Shown piece after piece: positions 807 to 51,427 of a stretch of DNA of 51,427 nucleotides. Under the pieces are notes generated by a model. It ran no database searches and was not told the origin of the DNA. It saw only the letters and a list, made by a program, of their open reading frames with translations. The stretch comes from an uncultured Candidatus Saccharibacteria bacterium (lineage in GTDB: Bacteria > Patescibacteriota > Minisyncoccia > Phycocordibacterales > PALSA-1337). How positions within the stretch are numbered: position 1 is the stretch's first letter; each line of letters begins with the position of its first letter. Made by a program: the position numbers and the translations under genes. The stretch is taken from NCBI GenBank assembly GCA_964591325.1, contig CAZQAQ010000002.1, positions 9,892 to 61,318 on the forward strand, read 5' to 3'.

Positions 807-810
807 AAAT

Positions 811-2019: not shown

Positions 2020-2070
2020 GAGGTTTTGCACTAGTTATCCACATTGGTATTTAGTTCACATAAACAACTT

Positions 2071-2079
2071 TGCTATAAT
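2071..2079 (+). promoter_or_regulatory. Candidate extended -10 promoter element for the major pilin gene
   Basis: TGcTATAAT at 2071-2079, about 45 nt upstream of the pilin ATG. Only a weak -35 (TTAGTT at 2051-2056). Confidence 0.35.
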
Positions 2080-2124
2080 AGTGTTCATAAGGTATTAAAG
2101 TTAAATTAATAGTAATTAAATAAA

Positions 2125-2649: not shown

Positions 2650-2668
2650 TTTGATTTAGTTAGTAAAA

Positions 2669-2699
2669 CAAAAAACCACCTTTATGGGTGGTTTTTTTG
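2669..2699. terminator. Bidirectional rho-independent terminator between convergent pilA and the glycosyltransferase gene
   Basis: AAAAAACCACC-TTTATG-GGTGGTTTTTTT: G/C stem flanked by an A-run and a T-run. Confidence 0.7.
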
Positions 2700-2709
2700 T
2701 TTATGCTGC

Positions 2710-4092: not shown

Positions 4093-4162
4093 CTCTATAT
4101 TATATCTATATTTATCCTATTATAAAGATGCTCTTTATCTCTTTATCTGTTAAAATGTATAT

Positions 4163-4627
4163 ATGAAAATATCTTTTAAAAATGGTTTTACTTTGATTGA
4201 GCTTATGGTGGTTATGGCAATTATTGCTATATTAACAGCGGTTGTACTTTCAAATCTTGGTCAGTCAAAGATGAAGGCGCGTGATGGTAAGAGGGTATCT
4301 GATATTGCACAGATACAGCTTGCTCTAGAACTATACTTTGATAGGTGTAATGCTTATCCAGGTAGTTTGGATTTAACAAATTCAAACACTACTTGTGCTA
4401 CAAACTCAAATATAAAATTAGGCAATTATATTACTGCAATTCCTACTGACCCAGTTACAAAGGTTGTTTATGATTATTCAGGCTCTGGTAGTCCAGTTGT
4501 TGATTATGTTTTAAGAACTAAACTTGAAACTAGCAATCAAGCACTAAGTGATGATGTTGATGGTACACAGCTGACACTTGATTGTTCAGACTCTCCAAAC
4601 TTTTACTACTGTGTAAAGCCAAAGTAA
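4163..4627 (+). CDS. Type IV pilin-like protein
   Basis: KNG/FTLIELMVVMAIIAILTAVVL prepilin signal with Glu5. 154 aa. Its stop overlaps the pilD start (TAATG). Confidence 0.8.
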   Translation: MKISFKNGFTLIELMVVMAIIAILTAVVLSNLGQSKMKARDGKRVSDIAQIQLALELYFDRCNAYPGSLDLTNSNTTCATNSNIKLGNYITAIPTDPVTKVVYDYSGSGSPVVDYVLRTKLETSNQALSDDVDGTQLTLDCSDSPNFYYCVKPK

Positions 4628-5421
4628 TGAATGTTTTATTTTTAGTATTTTCTTTTATACTAGGTACTCTTATTGGAAGCTTTTTGAATGTTGTATCTCT
4701 GAGGTTCAATACTGGTATGACACTGGGGGGTAGATCAAAGTGTTTTTCCTGCGGTAAAACACTTACATGGAGTGAACTTATACCGGTATTTAGTTTTTTA
4801 TTTCAAAGTGGTAAATGTAGAAAATGTAAAACAAAGATCTCATGGCAATATCCTATTGTAGAAACAATTTCCGGGATAATTTTTGTCTTAATATTTATAT
4901 ATTTTCCTCCGATTGGGGTATATGAGAGTATAAATACAGTATTTTATTTGGTTATAACATGTATATTACTTGTTATTACTGTTTACGATATAAAACACAA
5001 GATTATCCCAGATTCACTTTCTTATAGTTTTGCTATTATCGCTTTTATTCATATGTTTATATCAAAAGATCTTACTTTTATTATGCCACCAATATATGAA
5101 ATACTTGCTGGACCCATCATTGCTTCACCTTTTGTATTTTTATGGATTATTTCAAAAGGTAAGTGGCTTGGACTTGGAGATGCAAAACTGGTTTTGGGTA
5201 TAGGTTATACACTAGGGCTTTTTGCTTCTATATCTAGTCTTATATTGTCTTTTTGGATAGGTGCTTTTGTTGGAGTTGCTTATATGCTTTTTATTGTAAA
5301 AAAATATAAAAAGGGTTATGAACTTCCTTTTGGTCCGTATCTTATTCTTGGAATGTATATTGTTCTTTTTACAAACATCACAATTATCGATATTCCATCA
5401 CTAATTTCTCTAATAAAATAA
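4627..5421 (+). CDS. pilD: Prepilin peptidase / N-methyltransferase PilD (A24 family)
   Basis: Likely start is the ATG at 4627 (MNVLFLVFSFILGTLIGSFLNVV), not the listed 4582. Cys pairs CFSCG...CRKC. Conserved Asp contexts VYDIKHKIIPD and GLGDAKL. Confidence 0.85.
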   Translation: MNVLFLVFSFILGTLIGSFLNVVSLRFNTGMTLGGRSKCFSCGKTLTWSELIPVFSFLFQSGKCRKCKTKISWQYPIVETISGIIFVLIFIYFPPIGVYESINTVFYLVITCILLVITVYDIKHKIIPDSLSYSFAIIAFIHMFISKDLTFIMPPIYEILAGPIIASPFVFLWIISKGKWLGLGDAKLVLGIGYTLGLFASISSLILSFWIGAFVGVAYMLFIVKKYKKGYELPFGPYLILGMYIVLFTNITIIDIPSLISLIK

Positions 5422-5422
5422 A

Positions 5423-6055
5423 ATGCAATTAAAAAATAAAAATAAAATTAGATCAAGTATAAAAGGTTTTACTCTGGTCGAACTAGTCATATCTATAGGA
5501 ATATTCGCTCTTATGACTGGTGTCTTACTTTCAAAATACGGAAACTTCAATCAAGGTGTAATACTTACAAATCTTGCTTATGATATAGCATTGGCAATAA
5601 GGACTTCTCAGTCTTACGGTATAAATGTAAAAAGTGCTCCAACAAGTAGTGCAAATTATTCAAATAGCTTCCAATACGGGTATGGTATGCACTTTAGTAC
5701 TTTAAATGATACCGAGAAAAAGAAAATGACTTTTTTTGTTGATAAATCTCCAGTAGATAAGGTTTATAACAAGCCAGACGATGACGCTCCTTCATCAGGT
5801 GAGCTTATAACAGAATATTCAGTTAAAAGAGGGCTTAAAATAAATAAACTTTGTGTTGGCGCTGATATATCTACATGTATTGCAGTAACTTCTATGGATG
5901 TTATGTTTCTACGTCCTGATCCAAATGCTATAATTACTGCAAACGGAAATGGGGGAACTACTTATTCTTATGCTTATATAGAGATACTATCTCCAGACGG
6001 TACAAGTAAAAAGATAGAAGTAAGGAAAACAGGTCAAATTGAAATAACAGATTAA
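5423..6055 (+). CDS. Minor pilin / pseudopilin
   Basis: IKG/FTLVELVISIGIFALMTG prepilin signal. 210 aa. Confidence 0.7.
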   Translation: MQLKNKNKIRSSIKGFTLVELVISIGIFALMTGVLLSKYGNFNQGVILTNLAYDIALAIRTSQSYGINVKSAPTSSANYSNSFQYGYGMHFSTLNDTEKKKMTFFVDKSPVDKVYNKPDDDAPSSGELITEYSVKRGLKINKLCVGADISTCIAVTSMDVMFLRPDPNAIITANGNGGTTYSYAYIEILSPDGTSKKIEVRKTGQIEITD

Positions 6056-6056
6056 A

Positions 6057-6698
6057 ATGTTTTTATTTTTAAATAAAAAAAGTACATTCAAAAAAGGTTT
6101 TACTCTAATAGAGATAATAGTGTCTTTGGCTATTTTCAGTATCGTTTCAGTCATAGCTGTTGGTGCACTTCTAAAGATTATTGATGCAAATAAGAAATCT
6201 CAGTCACTTAAAACTGCAATAAATAATGTTAGTTTTGTATTGGAATCTATGTCTCGTGAATTAAGAGTTGGTACAAACTACTATTGTACAAAAACAAATT
6301 TTACTCTTTCTAGTGGTGCTTCTTTACCATCAAGACTTGGATGTTCTGCTGATGTGCAAGATTGGATAATTGCTTTTTATTCTTCAAATACAGCATCAAA
6401 TGGGGCTGGAGGTAATTGTCATCTAGTGTATGCTTATCGATTTGCAAATGGAACAATAGAAAAAGCAGAGCAAACAACATGCTCAGATTCACTTTCAAAT
6501 TCTTCATTTCACCCAGTTATATCTAAAGATGTTAAGTTTTCAAAAGCGAGTTTGGCAGTAAATGTCTCACCGGTAGGCTCTTTTATTGAAAAACAATCAT
6601 ATGCACTCATTCATTTAGTTGGTTATGTTGGTGGAAAAGAAAATGTTCAAACACATTTCGATGTTCAAACAAGCATATCTCAAAGACTTACAGATTAA
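6057..6698 (+). CDS. Minor pilin / pseudopilin
   Basis: KKG/FTLIEIIVSLAIFSIVSV prepilin signal. 213 aa. Confidence 0.7.
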   Translation: MFLFLNKKSTFKKGFTLIEIIVSLAIFSIVSVIAVGALLKIIDANKKSQSLKTAINNVSFVLESMSRELRVGTNYYCTKTNFTLSSGASLPSRLGCSADVQDWIIAFYSSNTASNGAGGNCHLVYAYRFANGTIEKAEQTTCSDSLSNSSFHPVISKDVKFSKASLAVNVSPVGSFIEKQSYALIHLVGYVGGKENVQTHFDVQTSISQRLTD

Positions 6699-6701
6699 TT
6701 T

Positions 6702-7310
6702 ATGAAAAATATTATTTATAAAAATAAAATATTTAGTTTAAAAAGCCTAAAAAATAATTCTGGTTTTACTATTGTAGAGACTCTTGTTGCAATTACTATA
6801 CTTATGATAGCTATTGCAGGACCACTAACAATTGCTCAAAAGGGTCTTACTGCATCTACTTATGCTAGAGATCAAATGATTGCATCATTTCTTGCTCAAG
6901 ATGGGCTAGAGTATGCAAAAAATATAAGAGATAATAATCTTAAAAATAGAGACCCGATCGACTGGCTATATGGACTGACTTCTTGTACATCACATGACCC
7001 TTGTAGTGTAAACACACTCGATGGAGATCCTACGTCAGATACAAGTCCATTAGGTGTAGATACTTGTCCTTCTGGTTACGATACAAGTTCAAACTATGAG
7101 TGTCCTTTGTACAAAAGTAGTACAAATAATGTTGGTTATACTCCTGACTCATCAAATATAGACGAAACACAGTTTAATAGAGTTTTTTATATAATACCTG
7201 ATCAATTGAATTCAAATAAAGCTAGTATGGTGGTAAAAGTATTTTGGTATAACGGAACAGTATCAAATGAGGTCATATATCAAGATGAAATTTATAATAT
7301 AAGACTATGA
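6702..7310 (+). CDS. Minor pilin / pseudopilin
   Basis: NSG/FTIVETLVAITILMIAIAG prepilin signal. 202 aa. Confidence 0.7.
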   Translation: MKNIIYKNKIFSLKSLKNNSGFTIVETLVAITILMIAIAGPLTIAQKGLTASTYARDQMIASFLAQDGLEYAKNIRDNNLKNRDPIDWLYGLTSCTSHDPCSVNTLDGDPTSDTSPLGVDTCPSGYDTSSNYECPLYKSSTNNVGYTPDSSNIDETQFNRVFYIIPDQLNSNKASMVVKVFWYNGTVSNEVIYQDEIYNIRL

Positions 7311-7810
7311 TAAATAAAAGAAGATTAAATATTATATATAGTAGGGGATATACGCTTTTATTTGCTGTTTTGGTATCATCTCTTGTTTTGGTTGTAGGTG
7401 TTTCTATACTTACAATAAGTAAAAAAGAATATCAATTGTCTGCTTCGGCTAGAGATTCGACCCTTGCCATATACGCAGCAGATGGTGCTCTTGAGTGTTT
7501 TGCATATGCTGATCAGGATACACAACCTGGAGAATTCCATTCTGATATGGCATGTGGAGAAGATAGAGGGTCAGTGTATATCTCAAGTACAGATCCACTA
7601 CTCCATACACTTTCATTTAAAGCAAAAATGGGTAAGGGTGCGGATGATAACTCTTGTGCAGATCTTTATGTGGAAAAAAGGTATTCAAATAATACATGGT
7701 CAACCGTTATACAATCTAGAGGATATAGTACTGGGTGGGATAGTAATAATCTAGATTGTGGCAAAACTAGTGCAAAGAAAGTTGAGAGAGCTATTAGACT
7801 TTCTTACTAA
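7307..7810 (+). CDS. PilX/GspK-like minor pilin lacking Glu5
   Basis: SRG/YTLLFAVLVSSLVLVVG hydrophobic N-terminus without Glu5. ATGA overlap with the preceding gene. Confidence 0.5.
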   Translation: MINKRRLNIIYSRGYTLLFAVLVSSLVLVVGVSILTISKKEYQLSASARDSTLAIYAADGALECFAYADQDTQPGEFHSDMACGEDRGSVYISSTDPLLHTLSFKAKMGKGADDNSCADLYVEKRYSNNTWSTVIQSRGYSTGWDSNNLDCGKTSAKKVERAIRLSY

Positions 7811-41649: not shown

Positions 41650-42687
41650 GTGAATAATAGTGTTGGACTTAATAATTCGTTTCCGGTGTACAAGAACTCT
41701 TCACTTGTTCTTGAAACAATGTGGGGAAGTAGTCATAGGGCTGAAGAGGGATTTGAATATCCAGTGTATCTTAGGGAAAAGAAGAATATATACTGGCTTT
41801 TCATCTTCCTCTCGGTTGCTACGTTACTAGCTATTCTAGCGAGTGCGGTGATGGCGTTTGTGTACGTAGATGTTTTAGGTGAGACTGTATCAAAAGTTTT
41901 TTTTATCAGTATACTCTTTTATTTTGTTGCGTTTACTTTATGCATCCATGAAGTTTATGTTCTATACAATCTGCTTAAAAAGTATAGAGCTGATCTCGCA
42001 CTTTTAAGTTTGGTGTATGGAAACATACCCTTTGGAGCTAAGGCATACAATGAAATGAGTCGAGAAGAACTCCAATCTACACTCATGAATATCTTTTATT
42101 TTCATGTGATGAAATATCAGTTAGACATGAGTAATGAAGAGAATGAAAAGGAGCTAAATAAAATACTCAGCTTACTTAAAAGGTTTGGAATCATAAACTA
42201 TAATAGTGGAGTGGGGGAGTATATATTTCTCAGGCCGCTCAATCCAGATGAAGATATTTCAATAACTATAAAGGCTTCTTATCTTGAAGGCTCAATACGT
42301 ACTCTCGGTAAAATTTTACCTAATGAAATTTTAGCGATGGTAGGCAATTTTTATTTTATATCAGGTAATCCCGATAGGGTGATCGGATTGGAATTTTATG
42401 AAATTACAAAGCCAGTTAACCTAAAAGATGTGCATATGAGGGGGTTTAAACAGGATGAAGGTACTGCCATGTACTTCACACTTTGTTTATTAAAAAAGAA
42501 TCCTCACATTACAAGTGGTAAGTATGGAAAAGAGTTTTTGATTTGGGCAGCATCAATTTTTGGCACGCGATACTATATCGCCACACTAACTGAAGACGTT
42601 GTTCAAGGAAAGAATCAGGTTAGTGTAAAACCCTACTTTTTGCCAACAGTTAAAAAGGGGGTAAGGGTGGTCATAGTTAGTATATAA
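41650..42687 (+). CDS. Orphan membrane protein (2 TM plus a soluble domain of about 230 aa)
   Basis: GTG start with GAAAGG upstream. Two TM segments at residues 47-105. No motif recognised. A perfect terminator follows. Confidence 0.5.
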   Translation: MNNSVGLNNSFPVYKNSSLVLETMWGSSHRAEEGFEYPVYLREKKNIYWLFIFLSVATLLAILASAVMAFVYVDVLGETVSKVFFISILFYFVAFTLCIHEVYVLYNLLKKYRADLALLSLVYGNIPFGAKAYNEMSREELQSTLMNIFYFHVMKYQLDMSNEENEKELNKILSLLKRFGIINYNSGVGEYIFLRPLNPDEDISITIKASYLEGSIRTLGKILPNEILAMVGNFYFISGNPDRVIGLEFYEITKPVNLKDVHMRGFKQDEGTAMYFTLCLLKKNPHITSGKYGKEFLIWAASIFGTRYYIATLTEDVVQGKNQVSVKPYFLPTVKKGVRVVIVSI

Positions 42688-42692
42688 AACAA

Positions 42693-42727
42693 ACCGGTAT
42701 GCACACTGCATACCGGTAGTTTTTTAT
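42693..42727 (+). terminator. Rho-independent terminator
   Basis: ACCGGTATGCA-CAC-TGCATACCGGT (11-bp perfect stem) followed by AGTTTTTT. Confidence 0.85.
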
Positions 42728-43009: not shown

Positions 43010-44018
43010 ATATAAACTTTAATAAACCTTAATAAAGATTATATCAAATAGTATAAGATATTAATAATGAGTTATACACATTATCAAGGTTTTATAATAT
43101 AAAATAAAACCAGCAAAATAATTTAAATTACGAGGTTTATAGTAATTTGTTCATGATAAGATTGTCGAACAATTCTTGTATATATTCAAAATATTTTATT
43201 TTAACTATGTCTCTATTTGAGCTTAGGGAATAGTTTAATACTTCGCTCAAATGTCTGCATTTAATAAAAGATCGAGTTATATTTCCACATGTTTTATTTT
43301 GTTTATTCATAAAAGCGCTAATTGTACATATATAACTTCGTATTACTTGATTTAATCAGTTTAAATTGCTGGCACGTGCTTCTGTATACTTGTAGGGGCC
43401 TCAGTTTATATTCCTTTTAATAAACTAAATACATATTTTATATCACTATAAATATAAGTATCACTGCCATATATCTATATTAGCTAGGTATCAATAATGT
43501 ATTGAAACGCTTTAAATACAGACTTACATTATCTATACAATTTTATATGTAATTTTCCTTTTTATTATACGGCTAATATTCGTTATCTCGTGAACCCGAG
43601 ATGATATTTTAAGCCATTATTTTGTATATTGATTAAATGAGCGAGAAGGCTATATAGAGGTATATTTTGGGATATGAATTCACGTAATTTTGAGTAATTC
43701 TTATGTATTATGTTTATATGTTAATACTCAATTTAAGCTTATACCGATCTACATACTTACTATATTTAACTATATCTGTAATACCTAGAGCTTTTGATTT
43801 GCGTGTATGTGAATTTTATCGAGCTAAATCTACTTTTAATGTATGGATAGTTAAATTTTCTATTTGTATGATTGAAATCTAGTCGCGTCGCGTCATTTAT
43901 TTGATATATAAATATTTGTTAATTAAAATTTTGTTTTTTCTAATAGAAAGTATCAGACTTATCCACATTTTTATTGCAACAAATGACCCGAGATGGGTTA
44001 TAATTGTAATAAATAAAT

Positions 44019-45026
44019 ATGAAAGATAGTCTTATTTTTGAACATAAAAAATACATCTCGGCTAAACGAGCTTCTGAGCTTGTTGGTTACACTCGCGACT
44101 ATGTTGGTCAACTATCTAGAGAAGGAAAGATTGATAGCAGAATGTTTGGTCGTTCATGGTTCATTTCTGAAGAATCAATTTTGAGTCACAAAGCTCAAAA
44201 TGCTCTTAACAATAAAAAGAATGCAGAATTACTTTTGGCAAATAAGAAAAATGCTAAGACATCACAAATAGTTGAAACAACATCAAACCCAGTTATAGTA
44301 GTTTCAAATCCAATTCTTCCAGTTGTCAAATCAGTTCCATCACCACTAATTGATAAGAATATTTTTTCTGGAATTTCTGGAACTGTTTCAAACAATATTG
44401 TTAATCCAGTAAAGTCCGCAATAAATAATTCTCAAATTATTTCAGGTATGCCTCAACTTTCAGTTGCAGGTAGTTCTGTAAAATTCGGTCAGACAATAAA
44501 TTCAAAGTCTGGATCAATTGCGAATACTTCAAAACTTTATACAAAAGAAAATATAGCAATGGCATTTATGTCACTAGTTATAGTTTTTAATATTTTCTTT
44601 ATAAAGGATAATTTTATAAATAATTCAAATAAAAATGTTGCTGGTGTTTCAGAAGCATTGAGTATTGAATCAATAAAACATTTTGCTTCAACACTAGCAA
44701 GAGGATTTGGAATCATATCAGAAAGAATTGCAATGAGACTTAATCTAGGTGAAAAGTCTTATTCAGTTGTAAATTCGAAACCTGTTGTTGCAAAGAATGA
44801 TGACGCAAATGATGTTGGTTATGCTGGTATAGCAGTTCTACCATCAACAAATTCACTAGAAAAAGATGAGATTATAAAACAACATATAAAAGATACATTC
44901 TCTGATGAGGTGAATGTAAGACCGGACCCTTCAGGTAGTGCTGGGGTCATAACCCCGGTATTCAAGAAAGCAACGAAAGATAGTTATATATATGTTTTGG
45001 TTCCGACGGTTGAAGAGAAGAAGTAG
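44019..45026 (+). CDS. Membrane-anchored protein with an N-terminal excisionase/MerR-type HTH
   Basis: KYISAKRASELVGYTRDYVGQLSREGKIDSRMFGRSWFISEESI, then a Ser/Asn/Val-rich linker, one TM (IAMAFMSLVIVFNIFFI) and a C-terminal domain of about 140 aa. Confidence 0.6.
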   Translation: MKDSLIFEHKKYISAKRASELVGYTRDYVGQLSREGKIDSRMFGRSWFISEESILSHKAQNALNNKKNAELLLANKKNAKTSQIVETTSNPVIVVSNPILPVVKSVPSPLIDKNIFSGISGTVSNNIVNPVKSAINNSQIISGMPQLSVAGSSVKFGQTINSKSGSIANTSKLYTKENIAMAFMSLVIVFNIFFIKDNFINNSNKNVAGVSEALSIESIKHFASTLARGFGIISERIAMRLNLGEKSYSVVNSKPVVAKNDDANDVGYAGIAVLPSTNSLEKDEIIKQHIKDTFSDEVNVRPDPSGSAGVITPVFKKATKDSYIYVLVPTVEEKK

Positions 45027-45056: not shown

Positions 45057-46256
45057 ATGAAAAATAACAATAGAGTACAAAATAATAAAGTAAATACAAC
45101 TATATCTAAAATAGTAGGTATTATTGTTTTGGTTTCTCTATTTACACCTATATATAGTGTGTTCGGTGAAGTTATGACAAGTGGAAATTACAGACTACAA
45201 AGTGATAGTTTAAATTTCTCTGGAAATAGATCAGGTTCATATTCATATAATATAGAAGACACACAAGGTGAAATAGGTACTGGTGAACAAGGAAGCAATA
45301 GCAATATAGTAAGAGCTGGATACCAACAAGCAGATACTGCTTCTGCAGGTTCTGCTTCAGAAAATGTATATAGCGGAGGAAGAGGTTCAGGTTCAGATAT
45401 AAATAATTCAGCAATAAATGTTATTGAATTTATTGCTATACCTCTTTCAAAATCAATATCATTAAACTGGTCATATCCAGCAGGTGTAGGTATAGAGTCT
45501 GTAAAAATAGTTCGTTCAGATAAATTCTATCCAGTAGATATGAATGATGGTGAAGTTATATTTGAAGGAGTTGGAACTGGTGCTATAGACAATGATGTTG
45601 TACCAGGTAAGACATATTATTATGCACTATTTACAAAGAATTCTTTGGGCGAATACTCATCTGGAGTTTTGGCAAAAGCTATTATATTAAAAGATGGTGA
45701 AAAGCCTTCTGATATAGAACTTGATCCTTTTGCAAATATCCCAAATGCTTTGGCGGTAGATAAATTGATACAAGGGTTAACACTTCTAGATTTTGATTTT
45801 ATACAAGATGGTAAATACATAGATCATACAGTAGGTATAGTTCCAATAGATGGAAAAAAGAATTTAACAATAAGTCTAGACTATAAAAAGGTTCCAGAAG
45901 TTCTAAAGACAATTGCTATCACTCTCGTAGATCCAGATGATAGTACAAAAATATTTACATTCTTGTTGAGAGTAAATAAAGATAAGACTGCTTATGAAGC
46001 TACAATAGCTCCATTAAAGAAGAGTGGAAATTACAAGATAAATATCATCATACTTGATTATAAGAATCAGGGATTAAAGAGAATAAGTGGTGATATCAAG
46101 GCCGTTGTTTTTGAAGGATTCCTAAAGGCAATTTCAAATATAGATATAAGAGAACATAAGAAATTATCACTAGGAATACTAATATCTATTATTGCTATCT
46201 TTATGATCCTTATAATAAAGATAAAGAATAAATTACAAGAAAAATATGAAATATAA
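45057..46256 (+). CDS. Bitopic surface protein with an FN3-like domain
   Basis: N-terminal anchor/signal and a SGNYRLQSDSLNFSG...YSYNIEDTQGEIGTGE...RAGYQQ motif. FN3-like stretch LNWSYP...VKIVRS...GKTYYYALFTKN. C-terminal TM. The 3' end overlaps the giant ORF start by 11 nt. Confidence 0.6.
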   Translation: MKNNNRVQNNKVNTTISKIVGIIVLVSLFTPIYSVFGEVMTSGNYRLQSDSLNFSGNRSGSYSYNIEDTQGEIGTGEQGSNSNIVRAGYQQADTASAGSASENVYSGGRGSGSDINNSAINVIEFIAIPLSKSISLNWSYPAGVGIESVKIVRSDKFYPVDMNDGEVIFEGVGTGAIDNDVVPGKTYYYALFTKNSLGEYSSGVLAKAIILKDGEKPSDIELDPFANIPNALAVDKLIQGLTLLDFDFIQDGKYIDHTVGIVPIDGKKNLTISLDYKKVPEVLKTIAITLVDPDDSTKIFTFLLRVNKDKTAYEATIAPLKKSGNYKINIIILDYKNQGLKRISGDIKAVVFEGFLKAISNIDIREHKKLSLGILISIIAIFMILIIKIKNKLQEKYEI

Positions 46257-49200
46257 TATTCAATACAAAGGAATATTGATTTTCATAGCAGTTATGACTG
46301 CAGTATTTGGACTATATGGTTTTAATTTCAATACTGCAAAAGCGGTTATAAATAAACAAATAAACTATCAAGGTAAGTTATTTACAGGAACAAATACTCC
46401 AGTTACTGACGGTGGATACAATGTAAAGTACAGACTATATACAACAGCAACTGGTGGAAGCCCAATATGGACAGAAACACTTTGTTATTCATCTGATAAT
46501 GGAAATACTTGTGATGGTACAGGTACAGACAATCGTGTTTCAGTATCAAATGGTTTGTTCAGTACAATGCTAGGAAGTGTAACTTCACTTGATGCAGTTA
46601 ATTTCAATCAAACACTTTACCTTGGAGTAGAGATCGGGGGAAATAGTGCTTCATCAGCTACTTGGGACGGAGAAATGACACCTAGAAAGAAAATAGGAGC
46701 AGTTCCAGCTGCCTTCGAAGCAGATAAACTAGATGGACTATCAAGTGAACAGTTTATAAGATCTGATGCTGACAATGCCACAACTTCATCATCAACTTTC
46801 TTGAATGTAATTCAAAATGGAGCAGGAAAGGTTGCAGAATTTATAGGACAAAGTTCAGCAAGTGTACTATCTATACTTTCTGATGGAAAGGTTGGTATCG
46901 GAACAACAACTCCTACTGATGTGCTTTCAGTAAATGGTCCTATATACCTTGCAAATACATCTCCAGTATCAACAGCAAATCGTATATATGCAAATGGCGG
47001 TAGTTTGTACTATGCTGGTAATCTAATCGGAGGTGCTACAGTTGGAAATTGGACAAGCAATGGTACAGATGTTTGGAGACCAACTGGAAATGTCGGTATT
47101 GGTACTTCATCACCTGGGCAACTATTAGAAGTCTATAGTAATTCAACAAATCCGGTTATAAAAATAAGTAACGGTCTTTCTGGTAGTTTTCCAGTAATAC
47201 AGCTTGCTGACACAAGAACAAATGGACATACATGGAATATTGAATCCGGTAGGACATTAGGGCAACTTAGCTTCAGAGATGGAACTGCTGCTGTAGAAAG
47301 GATGACTATAAATGGTGATGGTAATGTTGGTATCGGTACAACATCCCCATACGCAAAACTTTCTGTAACATCAACATCAGTTGCTTCTACAACTCTAGCT
47401 CTACGTTCTGTATCATCACAGACCGCTAATCTACTGGATCTATTTAATGGATCAGGATCTTTAGTGAGTGTAATAAATACTTCAGGATTTATTGGTTTGG
47501 GTTCAACTACTCCAACAGGTATGCTAACTATCACAAATACAGGAACAACATATCCTTCATTTGTAGTTGAGGATAGTGCATCACCCGATGCATCTCCTTT
47601 CTTGATTGATAACGCTGGATTGGTTGGTATCGGTACTTCAACTCCAGATACACAACTTACAATAGCAGGTGGTTCAGCAGTAGACAAAGATGCAATATCT
47701 ATTTCTGGTTTCAATGGTAGTAACACAGAAAAAACTATGATAAGGATGATGAACGGAAATAGAAACTACACCTGGGGTTTAAGATTTGGTGCGGCAAGAG
47801 ATGTTTCTACAACTGGAGGTGCAACTGCAGGTGATGCTTTTGTTGTAAATACAAAAACAAATGGTGGTACAGAAACAGAAAGATTTAGAATTAGTAAAGA
47901 TGGGGATGTGGGAATTGGTACAACAGCACCACTGGCTCGTCTAGATGTTGTTGGAGCAAGTAGTGGAACAAGACCAATATTCCAAGTTTCAAGTCTTTCA
48001 GGTTTTTCTACAACTACAAGATTTGTAGTTGATGGTAGTGGAAATGTGGGAATTGGAACAAGTTCACCCGCTACTAAGCTTGAGGTTTCTACTGGAACAA
48101 ACCAAGCCACTCTTATTGGTGACCAGACCTCTTACGCAGCAGCAGGTCTTGGTTTGAGTAATGTTTCAAGCGGTATCGGATTTCGTAGATCTACCGATGG
48201 GATTGTTTCTACTGGAATGTTCAATTATAACGATACCGGAGGTGTTCCTGATTTGGGATTTAGAGCTCGCGGAGGATTCGGATTCTTTAATGGGGCAAGT
48301 GGTACACAGAATATGACATTAACCTCAGCGGGCAACGTTGGTATTGGATCAACAACACCGCTTGCTCAGCTATCAGTCGGAGGTAATTCAACTTCAAATA
48401 CTCTATTTGCTCTAGACGCTCTATCAGGACAAACACAACCAATACTAGATGTAAAACTAGCAAGTACATCGAAGTTTATGGTTGATAGTAGTGGAAATGT
48501 GGGAATTGGCACAACTACTCCAACAGCTCTACTATCAATCACTACACCTAATGCCGGAACAGGACAAGCACTACAGTCATGGTCATTTGGTGGTTCAACT
48601 GCAAACAGCACAAACTATAATCTAGCTATGAAGCAGGTAGTGACTTCAGGTGTTGTTGCTTGGGTATTTGATCAGAAGAATAACGGTACATCATATTCAA
48701 ATGTACTTGCATTCGATAGAGGTAATATCGGTATCGGCACCACCTCTCCAGGTCAGAAACTCTCAGTAGCAGGGGATATCCTCGGTAATGCATTTATCGG
48801 TTCATACTTCACCGCAACTTCAACTACACAAGCCTCCACATTCCCATATGCTTCTACGACCGGATTCACTTCGAGCGGCAATACATTCCTTGCAACAGTA
48901 GGCGGAAGTGTAAGTATAGGTACAACCACTTCAAGTCTCGCAACTCTTAACATCCAGGCCTCTGGAGGAGCGTCCATCAATCTTAACAACTCTTCAACTG
49001 CTATTACTACGGGAAATATCCTCGGTAATATCGATGCATACTCTCTTGATACTTCAACAGGCATGGCAGGTCTCTTCGGTCGCATCCGCTTTGCCGCAAC
49101 GACACTTTGGGATGGTACACAAGACGATGGAGCTGATATTATCTTCTCCACAAGGACTGTTGCGGATGCAACATCAACTCCGCTTGATCGTATGGTCATT

Positions 49201-51427
49201 ACCGCCGCTGGAAACGTCGGTATAGGTACAACAACTCCAGAGTCATTATTCAATATAAGAGGTTCATTACCAACATTTACAATTACAGATACATCAAATA
49301 CATCTGGGTCTGTTGGAGATTCGCTTTCAAATATTAATTTTGTAGGTGAAGATACATCATCTGGTCTTAATGGAACTGTCAGAGCTTCAATAGGTACATA
49401 TGCAGCAGATGTATTCAGAGCACAAGTGGGTCTTAATTTTATGACAAGGAATGGTGCCACACTTTATAATCGAATGGTTATAGAGCCAAATCTTGGAAAT
49501 GTTGGTATAGGTACAACTACTCCAGGTCAGAAACTTGAAGTTATGGGTATAGGTCGTTTCGATGGTACAAACACATTTTCTATAGGTAGTGATACAAATT
49601 ACAAGAGAATAGACACTGCTGGTACTGGTTCAGAAATATTCCGTTTTTTAAGTTCTGGTAATAATCTTGCTGGTTTACGAGCGGGAAGTGCTATTATTGG
49701 TTTGACTGCACCTTTTACAACTGCAACTGCACCAACGTCAGGTCTTTTGGTTCAAGGAAATGTGGGAGTTGGAACAACATCTCCGTACTCTCAACTTTCT
49801 GTTAGTGGACTTTCTGCTGCTACAACTCTCTTTGCTCTAGATGCTCTATCAGGTCAAACAGCTCCAATACTAGATGTTAAACTGGCAAGCACAACAAAGT
49901 TTGTAGTTGATGCTAGTGGAAATGTTGGGGTTGGTGTTACTACACCCACAGCAAACCTAGTAGTTAGTAAATCTTATGCAGAGCCTGCAGCAGGTATTGC
50001 TTCTACTACAGTTGCGGTTTTTTCTAATAATAATACAGCAAATGCTTCATCATCAATTTCTATACTATCTAGAAGTTCAGCAATCTCTAGTTTAAATTTC
50101 GGAACTCAATTAGGAGAAAGATCTGGATTTATAGATTACGGTATTGCTGCTGGTTCATATCAAGGATTAGCATTTGGTACTTTAGGTACTGAAAGAATGA
50201 GGATTGATGGAAATGGATATGTTGGTATTGGTACTACAACTCCAATAGGAAATCTTGATATAGCAGCTTCAGCTCCAGTGCTTAGACTAAGTGGTACAAA
50301 TACATCTATTTCAGCTGGTGGAACATATGGTGATATCGAATACTATACATCTGATACAACTGCGCAGGGAGTAATGGCAAGAATCAGAGCTAAGGGAAAT
50401 GATAGTAATGTTGGTGGCGATTCAGATTTATCATTCTGGACATTTACAGGTGGAGGATCATTAACAGAGAAGATGAGACTTATGAGTACAGGAAGATTAG
50501 GGATTGGTACAACTTCACCAGATAGACTTCTGACAGTTAGCGGCGCCACATCTGCTACAACTACAATAGAAACTACGACTGCAAATACAACTCCAGGACT
50601 AGAATTAAGATCAAATGTAACAGGTAATAACGTAAATATAGGTAATATATCATTTATAAATAGTTCAAACGGAAATAGTACATTAGCAAATATTACAGGA
50701 TTTCAGGGTGCTTCTGCTTCTTTGGGTGCGTTGATATTCAATACTAGAGCAGCATCTAATTACGGAGAAAGAATGAGAATTGATGTAAATGGAAACGTTG
50801 CAATAAGTACTTCTACAGCTAGTGAAAAGTTATCAATTCTTTCAGCAGACAATGTTCAAGCAACAAATATATTTGCAGTAAGAGCTAACAACCTTTCACA
50901 GGGTATAGGTATTGGTTATGATAGTATACGTCAATTGGGTGGTAGCGGTTCTCTTCTTTTGGATTCTAATAATTCTGGCCGTCTTCTTCTTCAAACAAAT
51001 GGAGGTACAGGTAATGTTGGTATAGCTACCTCAACTCCATGGGCTACATTATCTATAACAAACACAACTACAAATCCTTCATTCGTTGTAGAAGACTCAA
51101 CTTCACCTGATACCACTCCTTTCATAATTGATGCTAGTGGAAATGTTGGGGTTGGTATTTCAACACCTCTATATAAACTTGATGTGGATGGTTCTATGAG
51201 ACTTGGTGCTTCAAGTGGTTCAGTACAACCGATACTTGGAAGAAATACTAGTGGAGGTTTGAGTATTGATAGTACTGGTGCTGTTTCATCATCAAACAAT
51301 CTACTAACCGTAGCGAATAATGGGGGTACGGCACTGGTAACAGTATTAGGAGGAGGTAATGTTGGTATTGGAACAACATCACCAGATATATATTCACTTG
51401 GTCTAACAAAACATTTAACTTTGTCAA
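46246..51427 (+). CDS. Giant repeat-rich surface protein (tail-fibre-like), 3' end beyond the window
   Basis: I translated every codon from the ATG at 46246 to base 51427: 1727 sense codons and no stop. This ORF is absent from the supplied track. Signal peptide ILIFIAVMTAVFGLYGFNFNTAKA. The N-terminal module INYQGKL...GYNVKYRLYTTATGGSPIWTE...NGLFSTMLGS...PRKKIGAVPAAFEADKLDG is followed by at least 20 G-N-V-G-I-G-T-T-x-P motifs. Confidence 0.85.
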   Translation, partial: MKYNIQYKGILIFIAVMTAVFGLYGFNFNTAKAVINKQINYQGKLFTGTNTPVTDGGYNVKYRLYTTATGGSPIWTETLCYSSDNGNTCDGTGTDNRVSVSNGLFSTMLGSVTSLDAVNFNQTLYLGVEIGGNSASSATWDGEMTPRKKIGAVPAAFEADKLDGLSSEQFIRSDADNATTSSSTFLNVIQNGAGKVAEFIGQSSASVLSILSDGKVGIGTTTPTDVLSVNGPIYLANTSPVSTANRIYANGGSLYYAGNLIGGATVGNWTSNGTDVWRPTGNVGIGTSSPGQLLEVYSNSTNPVIKISNGLSGSFPVIQLADTRTNGHTWNIESGRTLGQLSFRDGTAAVERMTINGDGNVGIGTTSPYAKLSVTSTSVASTTLALRSVSSQTANLLDLFNGSGSLVSVINTSGFIGLGSTTPTGMLTITNTGTTYPSFVVEDSASPDASPFLIDNAGLVGIGTSTPDTQLTIAGGSAVDKDAISISGFNGSNTEKTMIRMMNGNRNYTWGLRFGAARDVSTTGGATAGDAFVVNTKTNGGTETERFRISKDGDVGIGTTAPLARLDVVGASSGTRPIFQVSSLSGFSTTTRFVVDGSGNVGIGTSSPATKLEVSTGTNQATLIGDQTSYAAAGLGLSNVSSGIGFRRSTDGIVSTGMFNYNDTGGVPDLGFRARGGFGFFNGASGTQNMTLTSAGNVGIGSTTPLAQLSVGGNSTSNTLFALDALSGQTQPILDVKLASTSKFMVDSSGNVGIGTTTPTALLSITTPNAGTGQALQSWSFGGSTANSTNYNLAMKQVVTSGVVAWVFDQKNNGTSYSNVLAFDRGNIGIGTTSPGQKLSVAGDILGNAFIGSYFTATSTTQASTFPYASTTGFTSSGNTFLATVGGSVSIGTTTSSLATLNIQASGGASINLNNSSTAITTGNILGNIDAYSLDTSTGMAGLFGRIRFAATTLWDGTQDDGADIIFSTRTVADATSTPLDRMVITAAGNVGIGTTTPESLFNIRGSLPTFTITDTSNTSGSVGDSLSNINFVGEDTSSGLNGTVRASIGTYAADVFRAQVGLNFMTRNGATLYNRMVIEPNLGNVGIGTTTPGQKLEVMGIGRFDGTNTFSIGSDTNYKRIDTAGTGSEIFRFLSSGNNLAGLRAGSAIIGLTAPFTTATAPTSGLLVQGNVGVGTTSPYSQLSVSGLSAATTLFALDALSGQTAPILDVKLASTTKFVVDASGNVGVGVTTPTANLVVSKSYAEPAAGIASTTVAVFSNNNTANASSSISILSRSSAISSLNFGTQLGERSGFIDYGIAAGSYQGLAFGTLGTERMRIDGNGYVGIGTTTPIGNLDIAASAPVLRLSGTNTSISAGGTYGDIEYYTSDTTAQGVMARIRAKGNDSNVGGDSDLSFWTFTGGGSLTEKMRLMSTGRLGIGTTSPDRLLTVSGATSATTTIETTTANTTPGLELRSNVTGNNVNIGNISFINSSNGNSTLANITGFQGASASLGALIFNTRAASNYGERMRIDVNGNVAISTSTASEKLSILSADNVQATNIFAVRANNLSQGIGIGYDSIRQLGGSGSLLLDSNNSGRLLLQTNGGTGNVGIATSTPWATLSITNTTTNPSFVVEDSTSPDTTPFIIDASGNVGVGISTPLYKLDVDGSMRLGASSGSVQPILGRNTSGGLSIDSTGAVSSSNNLLTVANNGGTALVTVLGGGNVGIGTTSPDIYSLGLTKHLTLS
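46888..51385 (+). repeat. Array of about 21 coding repeats of the motif G-(N/D)-V-G-(I/V)-G-T-(T/S)-x-P, spaced irregularly at about 150-300 nt
   Basis: Motif codons (gga aat gtt ggt att ggt aca aca .. cca and variants) start near 46888, 47086, 47321, 47487, 47617, 47901, 48040, 48331, 48491, 48721, 48904, 49211, 49494, 49757, 49917, 50215, 50491, 50791, 51011, 51139 and 51356. Confidence 0.85.

What the first reader, a model, noticed from the sequence alone, without database searches (positions are those of the whole stretch)
46246..51427. Giant open-ended ORF missed by the ORF track: signal peptide plus at least 20 GNVGIGTTxP repeats
The track lists no plus-strand ORF for the last 5.2 kb. 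Reading codon by codon from the ATG at 46246, which overlaps the stop of the upstream gene, gives 1727 sense codons to the last base with no stop. The product has a cleavable-looking signal peptide (…FNTAKA). It also has an N-terminal module that I recognise from tail-fibre-like and large surface proteins of uncultured bacteria (INYQGKL…YRLYTTATGGSPIWTE…NGLFSTMLGS…PRKKIGAVPAAFEADKLDG).

The rest is dominated by G-N-V-G-I-G-T-T-x-P motifs embedded in Ser/Thr/Gly/Asn-rich beta-type sequence. That motif is characteristic of phage tail-fibre and endosialidase-chaperone-type fibre proteins. In a reduced, probably episymbiotic genome, a secreted fibre of this size is a prime candidate for a host-attachment organelle. 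The true length, C-terminal domain and any downstream partner genes are outside the window.
Basis: partly seen in the sequence, partly recalled or inferred. Interest (0 to 1): 0.8.

Follow-up and report, generated by a model that had tools for sequence, protein, structure and literature searches.

The report
Giant phage-fibre-like surface fibre gene
The last 5.2 kb of the window really is one huge, unfinished gene for a secreted fibre related to phage tail fibres and to the prey-grabbing fibres of Bdellovibrio; it sits in a conserved three-gene cassette of an ultra-small (Patescibacteria-type) bacterium and is its best candidate for a device that grips other cells.

Summary
Frame 46246-51427 (+) has 1727 sense codons and no stop (P about 1e-53). 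It starts with a signal peptide and carries 20 G-x-V-G-I-G-T-T-x-P motifs, 7 of them strict. Independent assemblies confirm the sequence.

It is a chromosomal member of a very large family: 8270 clusters in the representative library, whose named members in the first homologue search are all Patescibacteria. The layout is signal peptide, a conserved ~140-aa all-beta N-domain, then a repeat shaft. The closest characterised relatives are Bdellovibrio MAT (mosaic adhesive trimer) fibres. The shaft matches solved MAT beta-helices, and the N-domain is a distant homologue of the MAT N-domain (hhalign E 2e-5; below NCBIfam's cutoff). Phages share the shaft repeats but not the N-domain.

- The fibre is always preceded by, or fused to, a membrane protein with tandem FnIII domains (orf399, 45057-46256). 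An HTH-plus-TM protein (orf335) usually comes before that.
- In fused homologues the fibre's signal peptide is internal.
- Between near-identical strains the N-terminus is 94-98% conserved, while the shaft collapses to 21-58% identity.

The best reading is a Sec-exported, probably trimeric surface fibre, docked by its N-domain and variable for target recognition. The C-terminus lies outside the window (orthologues end in Peptidase_S74). Function is inferred, not shown.

The parts
46246..51427 (+). Giant fibre gene, 5' part only (at least 1727 codons; runs off the window, no stop seen)
   Evidence: Independent support from L014, L009 and L001-3.
46246..46344 (+). Sec-type signal peptide (residues 1-33, predicted cleavage AKA|V)
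   Evidence: Read from the sequence. AXA-like site in 158/184 family members and a hydrophobic segment in 175/184 at the same offset from INYQG. It is equivalent to the internal TM2/signal peptide of the fused homologues.
46345..46764 (+). Conserved all-beta N-domain (residues 34-173, INYQGKL...PRKKIGAVPAAF...LDGL), the proposed cell-proximal docking domain
   Evidence: AF2 pLDDT above 90 for mature residues 1-120. No significant PDB fold match (best E 0.048). hhalign against the Bdellovibrio MAT N-domain profile: 76% probability, E 2.2e-5. NCBIfam Bdello_MAT_N: E 5.5e-4, 19.8 bits, whole model covered. 8270 representative clusters. Absent from phage genomes and IMG/VR. 94-98% identical in the sister strain.
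46765..47115 (+). Neck plus the first two repeat motifs (residues 174-290), still conserved between strains
   Evidence: 82-98% identity to L009 over residues 151-300. The DNA identity block ends at 47114. Three other assemblies end at 46946, just after the first motif at 46885-46935.
47116..51426 (+). Hypervariable repeat shaft (residues 291-1727) with 18 of the 20 GxVGIGTTxP motifs; inferred trimeric beta-helix with capping loops
   Evidence: PDB sequence hits to the beta-helix regions of Bd1334 (8oml, E 9e-6) and Bd2133 (8ond, E 8.5e-5). BLASTP 7e-12 to a full Bd1334 orthologue. PHROG tail-fibre families. 21-58% identity to the sister strain, apart from a 77-80% island at residues 451-550. 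Cassette replacement in L014 at 48741-49215. Internal 224-nt duplication at 48331-48554 and 49756-49979.
45057..46256 (+). orf399, the conserved partner. N-terminal TM/signal helix (residues 7-29); low-confidence SxNYxLxxDSxN segment (residues ~35-96, nt 45159-45344); tandem FnIII-like domains (residues 121-350, nt 45417-46106); C-terminal TM helix (residues 367-394, nt 46155-46238)
   Evidence: AF2 model. Foldseek finds tandem FnIII and RbmA. Directly upstream of, or fused to, the fibre in 8/8 loci. Weak PamT-like N-terminus.
44019..45026 (+). orf335. Excisionase-type HTH (residues ~10-58), single TM (residues 177-200), extracytoplasmic tail with a conserved last ~60 aa (residues 268-329)
   Evidence: Homologues sit upstream of the fibre cassette in L004-L007, with a short version in L012. 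The HTH-TM module is fused directly to fibre repeats in P0056, P0069, P0073, P0112 and P0120.
43010..44018 (.). 1-kb AT-rich non-coding gap upstream of the three-gene unit; probably holds the promoter
   Evidence: No ORF and no Rfam hit. Promoter-like sites are not above chance. There is no + strand terminator between orf335, orf399 and the fibre gene.
42693..42717 (.). Bidirectional intrinsic terminator closing the upstream genes (orf345 on +, MerR-like on -)
   Evidence: 11-bp stem with 6 GC pairs and T-runs on both strands.

Best explanation
The ORF encodes the first 1727 or more residues of a cell-surface fibre of a Patescibacteria (Parcubacteria/Paceibacteria-type) bacterium. It is a distant, much longer relative of the Bdellovibrio MAT (mosaic adhesive trimer) fibres and shares its shaft repeats with phage tail fibres.

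Proposed mechanism:
1. Transcription. The gene is transcribed with orf335 and orf399 as one unit. Gaps are 30 nt and -11 nt, and there is no terminator between them.
2. Export. The Sec system exports the protein, and signal peptidase cuts after AKA33. This step is inferred; the site is conserved across the family.
3. Docking. The new N-terminus is a ~140-aa beta-sandwich domain that stays next to the cell and docks the fibre non-covalently. The best candidate socket is the co-encoded membrane protein orf399, which has tandem FnIII domains held by a C-terminal TM helix. In 13 of 184 relatives the N-domain is internal, behind an internal signal peptide; in the seven of these that were aligned, the upstream part is an orf399 homologue in the same polypeptide. 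orf335 (cytoplasmic HTH, TM, external tail) is a second basal component. This step is inferred.
4. Shaft. The rest folds as a long homotrimeric beta-helix in which each GNVGIGTTxPxxxL motif forms a capping loop, as in solved MAT structures. Scaling from MAT dimensions gives at least 70-120 nm. This step is inferred.
5. Tip. The missing C-terminus probably carries a Peptidase_S74 intramolecular chaperone that drives trimerisation and cuts itself off, exposing the binding tip, as in the orthologues. This is outside the window.
6. Variation. The shaft, and presumably the tip, are swapped by recombination between strains, which changes binding specificity while the anchor stays constant. The variation pattern is shown; its purpose is inferred.
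For: - Real gene.
- Chromosomal, not phage: the window encodes a type IV pilus cluster, LigA, GatA/GatB, Obg, RNase J and GroEL, and no phage genes. The same order (AI-2E transporter, Obg, GatB, MerR, HTH-TM, FnIII-TM, fibre) recurs in L004, L005, L006, L007 and L009.
- MAT relationship, shaft: PDB sequence hits to Bd1334 and Bd2133 beta-helices and BLASTP 7e-12 to a full-length Bd1334 orthologue.
- MAT relationship, N-domain: hhalign 76% probability, E 2.2e-5 over 125 columns, starting right after the signal peptide in both families. NCBIfam Bdello_MAT_N covers model positions 8-160 of 162 at E 5.5e-4. The N-domain is confidently all-beta with no PDB fold homologue, which is what PMC10769870 reports for the MAT N-domain.
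- Phage comparison: phages share the shaft but not the N-domain.
- Partner linkage: an orf399-type gene is adjacent or fused in 8/8 loci, across four different genomic contexts.
- Internal signal peptides with AXA sites in fused proteins.
- orf399 fold is tandem FnIII plus a C-terminal TM helix, the same architecture as the proposed pilus tether PamR.
- Conserved anchor, variable shaft.
- S74 in orthologues and in 61/120 homologues.
Against: - There is no experimental or expression evidence of any kind.
- The C-terminal tip and any S74 domain are outside the window. Pfam finds nothing in the 1727 residues.
- Trimerisation and beta-helix geometry are inferred from about 27-30% identity to MAT fragments. 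The monomer AF2 model is poor beyond the N-domain (pLDDT below 50 for model residues 205-246).
- The N-domain match to Bdello_MAT_N is far below NCBI's cutoff (19.8 vs 60 bits).
- Docking to orf399 rests on gene adjacency and fusion only; no complex could be modelled. In fused proteins the TM hairpin could anchor the fibre directly if the internal site is not cleaved.
- The host or target is unknown, and some Parcubacteria are argued to be free-living (title of PMC12625730, seen).
- Bdellovibrio MAT genes lack an orf399-type neighbour (L008).
Confidence: 0.6

Rival explanations
1. It is a surface fibre of the same build, but its job is not host recognition. It could be a structural coat, a cell-cell or matrix cohesion fibre, or a variable shield or decoy against phages. 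In that case the hypervariability reflects evasion, not target switching.
For: The build and the anchor evidence are the same as for the best explanation. Extreme strain-level variability is equally typical of antigens and phage receptors. RbmA, a matrix scaffold, is among the fold matches of the partner protein. Some Parcubacteria are proposed to be free-living (title of PMC12625730).
Against: The only characterised relatives, MAT fibres, bind prey surfaces and terminate in adhesive tips (PMC10769870). The phage proteins that share the shaft repeats are annotated as tail fibre or virion structural proteins, and tail fibres are receptor-binding proteins (general knowledge). Downstream genes in orthologous loci are LamG lectin-like proteins.
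Confidence: 0.2
2. It is an enzymatic tailspike-like protein. The beta-helix or the unseen C-terminal part would carry a depolymerase that digests a host capsule or cell wall, as in endosialidases and P22-type tailspikes.
For: S74 chaperones in orthologues are classically attached to enzymatic spikes (K1F endosialidase, discussed in PMC10769870). The best monomer match for the Bd3182 beta-helix is the P22 tailspike.
Against: No glycosidase, lyase or peptidase domain is detected in 1727 residues by Pfam or NCBIfam. The architecture is dominated by thin fibre repeats rather than one large catalytic beta-helix. MAT fibres were not reported to be enzymes in the passages read.
Confidence: 0.1
3. 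It is a phage or prophage tail-fibre gene (a virion part) that happens to lie at the contig end.
For: Strong PHROG tail-fibre hits. Weak excisionase-type HTH matches in orf335 and HTH_17/MerR Pfam hits in the small minus-strand ORF of the matching loci. NCBI names relatives 'tail fiber domain-containing protein'.
Against: It has a Sec signal peptide. There is no capsid, terminase, portal or tail gene in the 46 kb upstream. The locus is syntenic next to Obg and GatB in at least five genomes. The N-domain is absent from 50,697 phage genomes and from IMG/VR but is shared with cellular MAT fibres.
Confidence: 0.04
4. It is an assembly artefact or a decaying pseudogene made of collapsed or chimeric repeats.
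For: Several assemblies break inside the gene. The repeats are numerous.
Against: The frame is open for 1727 codons with a strong codon-position signal. A JGI contig is 99.65% identical over the first 2.5 kb of the gene. DNA repeats are only 60-80% identical, too diverged to cause collapse. Orthologues of 1769-2803 aa are intact.
Confidence: 0.02

Closest known systems
Bdellovibrio bacteriovorus MAT (mosaic adhesive trimer) fibres: Bd1334, Bd2133, Bd3182 (Caulton et al. 2024, PMC10769870; PDB 8oml, 8ond, 8onc)
   Same: Signal peptide, then a conserved beta-rich N-domain of ~130-140 aa with no PDB fold homologue, then a shaft with VGIGTxxPxxxL capping-loop motifs, then (in orthologues) an S74 chaperone or another tip. 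The genes are chromosomal and cellular. Tips and shafts are mosaic and swappable. Sequence similarity is shown for the shaft and, more distantly, for the N-domain.
   Different: The host is a Patescibacteria-type bacterium, which is generally held to lack an outer membrane, not a diderm predator. The protein is at least 1727 aa, and family members reach 7725 aa, against about 1000 aa for MATs. It has 20 motif copies, against 4 in the Bd1334 orthologue. The N-domain scores far below the Bdello_MAT_N cutoff. There is an obligatory FnIII-TM partner gene, sometimes fused through a TM hairpin and internal signal peptide, and an HTH-TM partner; neither is seen next to the Bdellovibrio gene. Patescibacteria do not appear in the supplementary files of that paper that are held as text, including its table of MAT proteins from other organisms.
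Phage tail fibres and tailspikes with a C-terminal intramolecular chaperone (Peptidase_S74, PF13884), e.g. K1F endosialidase and T5 pb1; PHROG 9942 and 18345
   Same: The shaft repeats are shared (14 phage records). Orthologues end in PF13884.
   Different: This protein has a Sec signal peptide and a cellular N-domain in place of a virion-attachment domain. The N-domain is absent from phage collections. It sits in conserved chromosomal synteny with no virion genes. No S74 domain lies within the window.
NCBI 'tail fiber domain-containing protein' and hypothetical proteins of Candidatus Paceibacterota, Kaiserbacteria, Nomurabacteria, Campbellbacteria and related groups (uncharacterised)
   Same: This is the direct family of the window protein: same signal peptide, INYQGKL N-domain and repeats, with about 50-67% identity in the N-domain.
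   Different: Only annotation exists. No study of these proteins was found in the searched literature. The one mention is a 'tail fibre-like protein' co-localising with pam operons (bioRxiv 10.64898/2026.03.03.709456).
CPR-type Pam pilus components PamR (RbmA-like tandem FnIII plus C-terminal TM tether) and PamT (tip pilin) (bioRxiv 10.64898/2026.03.03.709456)
   Same: orf399 has PamR's architecture: an N-terminal extension, two FnIII-like domains and a C-terminal TM helix. Its N-terminal ~75 residues weakly match PamT. Full PamT-like genes lie in the fibre operons of other lineages.
   Different: Scores are far below the equivalog cutoffs (20-44 bits against 240). No PamA, PamB, PamC or PamD genes are in the window. 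The similarity is one of architecture; membership is not shown.

Membership tests
MAT (mosaic adhesive trimer) fibre superfamily | N-terminal Sec signal peptide | tested here: met
   n/h/c regions and AKA|V are read from the sequence. The AXA-like site and hydrophobic segment are conserved in 158 and 175 of 184 relatives. No dedicated predictor was available.
MAT (mosaic adhesive trimer) fibre superfamily | Conserved beta-rich N-domain of ~130 aa immediately after the signal peptide | tested here: met
   AF2 gives an all-beta domain with pLDDT above 90. Profile-profile hhalign against Bdellovibrio MAT N-domains gives 76% probability, E 2.2e-5, 125 columns in register from the cleavage site. 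This is remote homology only.
NCBIfam NF053851 Bdello_MAT_N (subfamily domain) | Score at or above the curated cutoff of 60 bits | tested here: not met
   19.8 bits, E 5.5e-4, although model positions 8-160 of 162 are covered. It is a distant relative, not a member of this subfamily.
MAT (mosaic adhesive trimer) fibre superfamily | Beta-helix shaft with capping-loop motifs | tested here: met
   Sequence matches to the beta-helix parts of 8oml and 8ond (E 9e-6 and 8.5e-5) and to a full Bd1334 orthologue (7e-12). The VGIGTTxPxxxL motif is identical in both.
MAT (mosaic adhesive trimer) fibre superfamily | Homotrimeric assembly along the whole fibre | not testable with these tools
   Only monomer prediction was available. 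The monomer model is low-confidence beyond the N-domain.
MAT (mosaic adhesive trimer) fibre superfamily | C-terminal S74 chaperone/protease or an alternative adhesive tip | not testable with these tools
   The C-terminus is outside the window, and three attempts to extend it failed. Syntenic orthologues carry PF13884 (weak).
MAT (mosaic adhesive trimer) fibre superfamily | Surface display and a role in recognising another cell | not testable with these tools
   This needs experiments.
Phage tail fibre (virion receptor-binding protein) | Encoded in a phage or prophage structural module | tested here: not met
   The context is housekeeping and type IV pilus genes with no virion genes, and the chromosomal synteny is conserved.
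Phage tail fibre (virion receptor-binding protein) | Fibre repeats shared with phage proteins | tested here: met
   phrog_9942 at 2.2e-59 and phrog_18345 at 6.6e-54. 14 phage records by tblastn.
Phage tail fibre (virion receptor-binding protein) | N-terminal domain of a type found on virions | tested here: not met
   The N-domain has no match in 50,697 phage genomes or in IMG/VR. A Sec signal peptide is present.
Peptidase_S74 (PF13884) intramolecular-chaperone proteins | PF13884 domain with a catalytic Ser-Lys (SDxxxK) motif | tested here: not met
   There is no Pfam hit in residues 1-1727. It could still lie in the unseen C-terminus; 61/120 homologues have it.
CPR-type Pam pilus (for partner orf399) | Equivalog-level match to PamT, or presence of PamA/B pilins and PamC/D chaperones | tested here: not met
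   PamT scores 20.5 bits against a cutoff of 240, and only for residues 21-94. No family B or D genes are in the window by tblastn.

The most novel reading that the evidence does not exclude
The three genes orf335, orf399 and the fibre gene may form a Patescibacteria-specific envelope organelle. A phage-type trimeric fibre would be plugged by its MAT-type N-domain into a membrane socket made of a tandem-FnIII protein. The socket's disordered SxNY N-terminal segment might complement the N-domain in a donor-strand-like way, as proposed for PamR. The HTH-TM protein would couple fibre engagement outside the cell to DNA binding inside it. If so, this would identify the long-sought surface receptor for MAT-type N-domains, and it would show that Pam-like (and perhaps WxL-like) surface systems and phage-like fibres work as one attachment machine.
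Probability: 0.15. Interest if true: 0.8.

Novelty: new variant of a known kind. Interest (0 to 1): 0.55.

Why it matters
How most Patescibacteria outside the cultured Saccharibacteria find and hold on to partner cells is unknown. Type IV pili and, recently, Pam pili are the only structures studied.

This locus shows that a huge and very common family of Patescibacteria proteins (thousands of clusters) belongs with the fibres that the predator Bdellovibrio uses to recognise prey. The two groups look like an independent or shared recruitment of phage receptor-binding architecture by bacteria that live on other bacteria.

The fusion evidence nominates a concrete membrane partner for the fibre's conserved N-domain. 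For Bdellovibrio MATs the authors state that this surface element is still unidentified.

The pattern of a conserved anchor and a swappable shaft between 98-99% identical strains predicts strain-specific partner ranges. It also explains why such genes break metagenome assemblies, so they are probably under-reported.

All of this can be tested by complex prediction, by long-read assembly, and by cryo-ET or proteomics of enrichment cultures.

Tried and rejected
**Extending the gene**
- The exact 95-mer from the window's end is absent from genome contigs and metagenome contigs. A 37-mer is also absent.
- Look-ups of the exact partner proteins returned only shorter contigs. The 61,318-bp NCBI contig recorded for them was not retrievable.
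- The window's first ORF (45-806) matches only positions 134-281 of the 370-position T2SSE profile, so it looks cut by the window start. I therefore think the extra ~10 kb lies upstream and the contig ends inside the fibre.

**Profile and fold searches**
- Pfam and NCBIfam on the whole 1727-aa protein gave no hits. Only a scan of the first 251 residues (46246-47000) exposed the Bdello_MAT_N match.
- Foldseek of the N-terminal model against PDB found nothing significant. Against BFVD there were only weak matches with very low TM-scores (0.2 or less) to long phage proteins.

**Other checks**
- The promoter scan is not above chance.
- Rfam finds only the four tRNAs.
- The literature searches found no description of these fibres in Patescibacteria.
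- The profile of the PamT-like family against PDB sequences gave nothing significant. The orf399 profile gave only marginal FnIII hits.
- I considered programmed frameshifting across the 11-nt overlap to make a fusion protein. I set it aside because the split arrangement is conserved in diverged genomes: 11-14 nt overlaps in L005, L007 and L009, and directly adjacent genes in L006. The fibre also has its own ATG and signal peptide.
- I considered a diversity-generating retroelement as the source of the variability. None of the larger window ORFs scanned against Pfam is a reverse transcriptase (the scan did not cover every ORF), and the variation is by blocks and indels, which points to recombination.

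Full report
**1. Observation**

Translating window 46246-51427 on the + strand gives 1727 codons and no stop. The other five frames of the same stretch contain 33-148 stops. With the region's base composition the chance of such an open frame is about 2e-53, and GC at the three codon positions is 46/54/18%.

The ATG at 46246 is the first start codon after an in-frame stop 7 codons upstream. It overlaps the stop of the preceding 399-aa ORF (45057-46256) by 11 nt. The ORF lister omits this ORF only because it does not report ORFs that run off the end.

The product begins MKYNIQYK / GILIFIAVMTAVFGLYGF / NFNTAKA|V, a standard Sec signal-peptide layout.

A loose pattern finds 20 G-x-V-G-I-G-T-T-x-P motifs 43-102 aa apart, of which 7 match GNVGIGT[TS]xP exactly. 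At the DNA level the copies are only 60-80% identical and every spacing is a multiple of three. The motif is therefore maintained in the protein and is not a recent duplication.

Independent assemblies support the sequence:
- Three contigs are identical over the first 701 nt of the gene.
- A JGI contig (L014) is 99.65% identical through residue ~832 and open for 1028 codons.
- A sister strain (L009) is open for 1275 codons.

**2. Context**

The window is ordinary chromosome of a small, 33% GC genome. It holds a type IV pilus cluster (45-7810), LigA, GatA, tRNAs, RNase J, GroEL, an ABC transporter, a histidine kinase, an AI-2E transporter, Obg and GatB. None of the larger ORFs scanned is a phage gene.

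Upstream of the fibre lie, in order:
- a bidirectional terminator (42693-42717);
- a small MerR-like gene on the minus strand;
- a 1-kb AT-rich gap;
- orf335 (44019-45026), then orf399 (45057-46256), then the fibre gene.

No terminator lies between the last three.

**3. Family**

A homologue search returned 1947 proteins. All named hits are from Patescibacteria (Paceibacterota, Kaiserbacteria, Campbellbacteria, Vogelbacteria, Yonathbacteria, Taylorbacteria, Nomurabacteria). Typical lengths are 1000-3000 aa, and NCBI often names them 'tail fiber domain-containing protein'.

By my count of the table, 61 of the 120 carry Peptidase_S74 (PF13884).

An exhaustive search with the N-domain alone (residues 34-170) finds 8270 representative clusters at E <= 1e-3 and 2033 at E <= 1e-10. 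Members reach 7725 aa.

- 158 have an AXA-like site exactly five residues before INYQG;
- 175 have a hydrophobic segment just upstream.

**4. Nearest characterised relatives**

Pfam finds nothing in the 1727 residues. PHROGs places the repeats in two families annotated as tail fibre (E 2.2e-59 and 6.6e-54).

A sequence search of the PDB hits only Bdellovibrio proteins Bd1334 (8oml, 8on4) and Bd2133 (8ond), at E 9e-6 to 1e-3. These are the MAT (mosaic adhesive trimer) fibres of Caulton et al. 2024 (PMC10769870). That paper describes:
- a signal peptide;
- an invariant beta-rich N-domain of ~130 aa, with no PDB homologue, that 'would presumably tightly bind a surface element' still unidentified;
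- a trimeric beta-helix with capping-loop motifs;
- an S74 chaperone or another adhesive tip.

I recovered a full Bd1334 orthologue from a B. bacteriovorus genome (L008). Its shaft aligns to the window protein at BLASTP 7e-12 and has identical VGIGTTxPxxxL motifs.

Evidence on the N-domain:
- AlphaFold2 with 28 homologues gives pLDDT above 90 for an all-beta domain, mature residues 1-120.
- Foldseek finds no significant PDB match (best E 0.048).
- A profile of Bdellovibrio MAT N-domains aligns to the Patescibacteria profile with 76% probability and E 2.2e-5 over 125 columns, in register from the cleavage site.
- NCBIfam's own Bdello_MAT_N model is covered end to end, but at 19.8 bits against a cutoff of 60.

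So the window protein is a distant MAT-superfamily relative and not a member of the Bdellovibrio subfamily. Patescibacteria do not appear in the supplementary files of that paper that are held as text, including its table of MAT proteins from other organisms.

**5. Cellular fibre or phage part**

The shaft (residues 541-1100) matches tail-fibre or virion proteins in 14 phage genomes. The N-domain matches none of 50,697 phage genomes and no IMG/VR contig. Together with the signal peptide and the chromosomal synteny described below, this argues against a virion component.

**6. Partner genes (new here)**

*orf399 is fused to the fibre in other genomes.* orf399 homologues (30-56% identity) are fused in-frame in front of the N-domain in seven of the fibre homologues. 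The alignment shows this order in the fused proteins:
- signal peptide;
- SxNY segment or extra FnIII domains;
- the conserved orf399 body;
- TM1, then a short basic loop;
- TM2 ending in A-x-A, then (A/I/F)N-x-x-INYQGKL.

The fibre's own signal peptide therefore corresponds to an internal signal peptide in these proteins. Thirteen of 184 relatives have such an internal N-domain, each with a hydrophobic segment and an AXA site.

*The gene order is conserved.* In L004, L005, L006, L007 and L009 the same order recurs: AI-2E transporter, Obg, GatB, MerR on the minus strand, HTH-TM, orf399-type, fibre. The fibres are 1769-2803 aa, or fused into one 2285-aa gene in L004. Start/stop overlaps are 11-14 nt in L005, L007 and L009, and the genes are directly adjacent in L006. 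LamG proteins often follow. In three other genomic contexts (L011, L012, L013) an orf399-type gene again directly precedes the fibre. That makes 8 of 8 loci.

*orf399 structure.* The AF2 model has:
- an N-terminal helix;
- a low-confidence segment at residues 31-115 that contains the SxNY motif;
- two confident beta-sandwich domains;
- a C-terminal TM helix.

Foldseek matches tandem FnIII pairs, and V. cholerae RbmA is among the top hits. This is the architecture proposed for PamR, the membrane tether of the CPR Pam pilus (bioRxiv 10.64898/2026.03.03.709456). The same preprint notes a 'tail fibre-like protein' co-localising with pam operons.

*orf335.* It has an excisionase-type HTH, one TM segment and an external tail with a conserved end. 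The same HTH-TM module is fused directly to fibre repeats, without an INYQGKL domain, in five other proteins.

**7. Variation**

Comparison of the window with sister strain L009:

| Protein or region | Identity |
|---|---|
| AI-2E transporter, Obg, GatB | 98-99% |
| orf335 | 93% |
| orf399 | 94% |
| Fibre residues 1-200 | 94-98% |
| Fibre beyond about residue 300 | 21-58%, many indels (one 77-80% island at 451-550) |

DNA identity is 91% over 9.4 kb and ends abruptly at 47114. L014 is 99.65% identical up to 48740, then carries a different ~0.5-kb cassette and rejoins the window sequence at 49216. Three other assemblies stop at 46946, just after the first motif.

The anchor end is conserved, and the shaft is exchanged in blocks.

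**8. Mechanism**

*Shown:*
- an intact, very long secreted-type ORF in an operon-like unit with two membrane proteins;
- homology to MAT shafts and, more remotely, to the MAT N-domain;
- a conserved or fused partner;
- the variability pattern.

*Inferred:*
- Sec export and cleavage after A33;
- docking of the N-domain at the cell surface, most likely on the FnIII-TM protein, with the HTH-TM protein as a second basal part;
- a homotrimeric beta-helix shaft in which the motifs form capping loops;
- a length of at least 70-120 nm;
- a C-terminal S74 chaperone and adhesive tip, as in the orthologues;
- recombinational switching of binding specificity.

The length estimate scales from two figures in PMC10769870: 142 Angstrom for 370 residues of Bd2133, and ~550 Angstrom for a full-length model of Bd3182 (self-cleavage at S782).

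I put about 0.85 on 'MAT-like surface fibre', about 0.5 on 'recognition of another cell' and about 0.45 on 'docked by orf399'. My overall confidence in the combined statement is 0.6.

**9. Novelty and score**

The fibre type is known (phage fibres, MAT fibres), and this exact family is already annotated generically in databases. What I did not find described is:
- the Patescibacteria branch as MAT relatives;
- its much greater length;
- the obligatory FnIII-TM and HTH-TM partners, and the fusions through a TM hairpin with an internal signal peptide;
- the sharp boundary between conserved anchor and variable shaft among near-identical strains.

I class it as a new variant of a known kind, with interest 0.55. 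It gives a concrete, testable candidate for host attachment in uncultured Patescibacteria and a candidate receptor for MAT-type N-domains. But the function is inferred and the tip is missing.

Noticed in passing
window 45-7810 (+): A type IV pilus gene cluster. It holds a T2SSE-type ATPase that looks cut by the window start (45-806), PilC (811-2019), five N_methyl pilin-like genes (2125-2649, 4163-4627, 5423-6055, 6057-6698, 6702-7310) and a prepilin peptidase (4582-5421). The same 51 kb therefore encodes two different surface-filament systems.
   Followed up: partly
L004 6075-12932 (protein P0013, residues 1145-1479): The orthologous, fused fibre of GCA_039740755.1 carries an intein (PF14890, E 7e-21) containing a NYN nuclease-like domain (PF01936, E 7e-16) inside the secreted shaft. 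P0064 and P0079 also have PF14890. An intein in a Sec-exported fibre would have to splice before export.
   Followed up: no
L006 7528-10004; L011 2399-4812; L012 429-3609; L013 2201-4616: In other lineages the fibre operon is longer. It has one or two ~215-260-aa secreted proteins distantly related to the Pam pilus tip protein PamT (NF058579, E 1e-9 to 1e-11). It also has a ~330-aa protein with a signal peptide and a C-terminal TM helix whose profile matches Enterococcus faecium WxL-interacting protein 1 (PDB 9i25 and 9i1y, E 1.3e-6; compare PMC10599100). This hints that CPR Pam-like operons, Gram-positive WxL clusters and these fibres are linked. In the window, only an ~80-aa PamT-like segment remains, fused onto orf399 (45105-45344).
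   Followed up: partly
P0056, P0069, P0073, P0112, P0120 (homologues); window 44019-45026: A cytoplasmic excisionase/MerR-type HTH followed by one TM helix is fused directly to 1700-2800-aa fibre-repeat proteins, without the INYQGKL domain. In the window it stands alone as orf335. Why a DNA-binding-type domain sits at the cytoplasmic end of an extracellular fibre is unexplained.
   Followed up: partly
window 41650-42687 (+): orf345, a membrane protein with no family match, is only 68% identical between the window and sister strain L009, while its neighbours are 98-99% identical. It is absent from the syntenic loci L004-L007. It is a second variable gene in this locus.
   Followed up: no
window 43010-44018: A 1-kb AT-rich stretch with no ORF of 60 aa or more and no Rfam hit lies between the divergent MerR-like gene and orf335. 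The equivalent gaps are about 230-1070 nt in the related loci.
   Followed up: no
L004 12940-15069; L007 11890-16583; L012 11911-14025; L006 18825-21623: Large secreted Laminin_G_3 (concanavalin-like lectin) repeat proteins lie directly downstream of the fibre gene in several related loci. The window ends before this position, so a similar partner may follow here.
   Followed up: no
window 46946 (= ends of L001, L002, L003): Three independent short-read assemblies all terminate at the same base, 701 nt into the fibre gene, just after the first repeat motif and just before strain divergence begins. Genes of this family are likely to be systematically truncated or missing in metagenome-assembled genomes.
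   Followed up: yes
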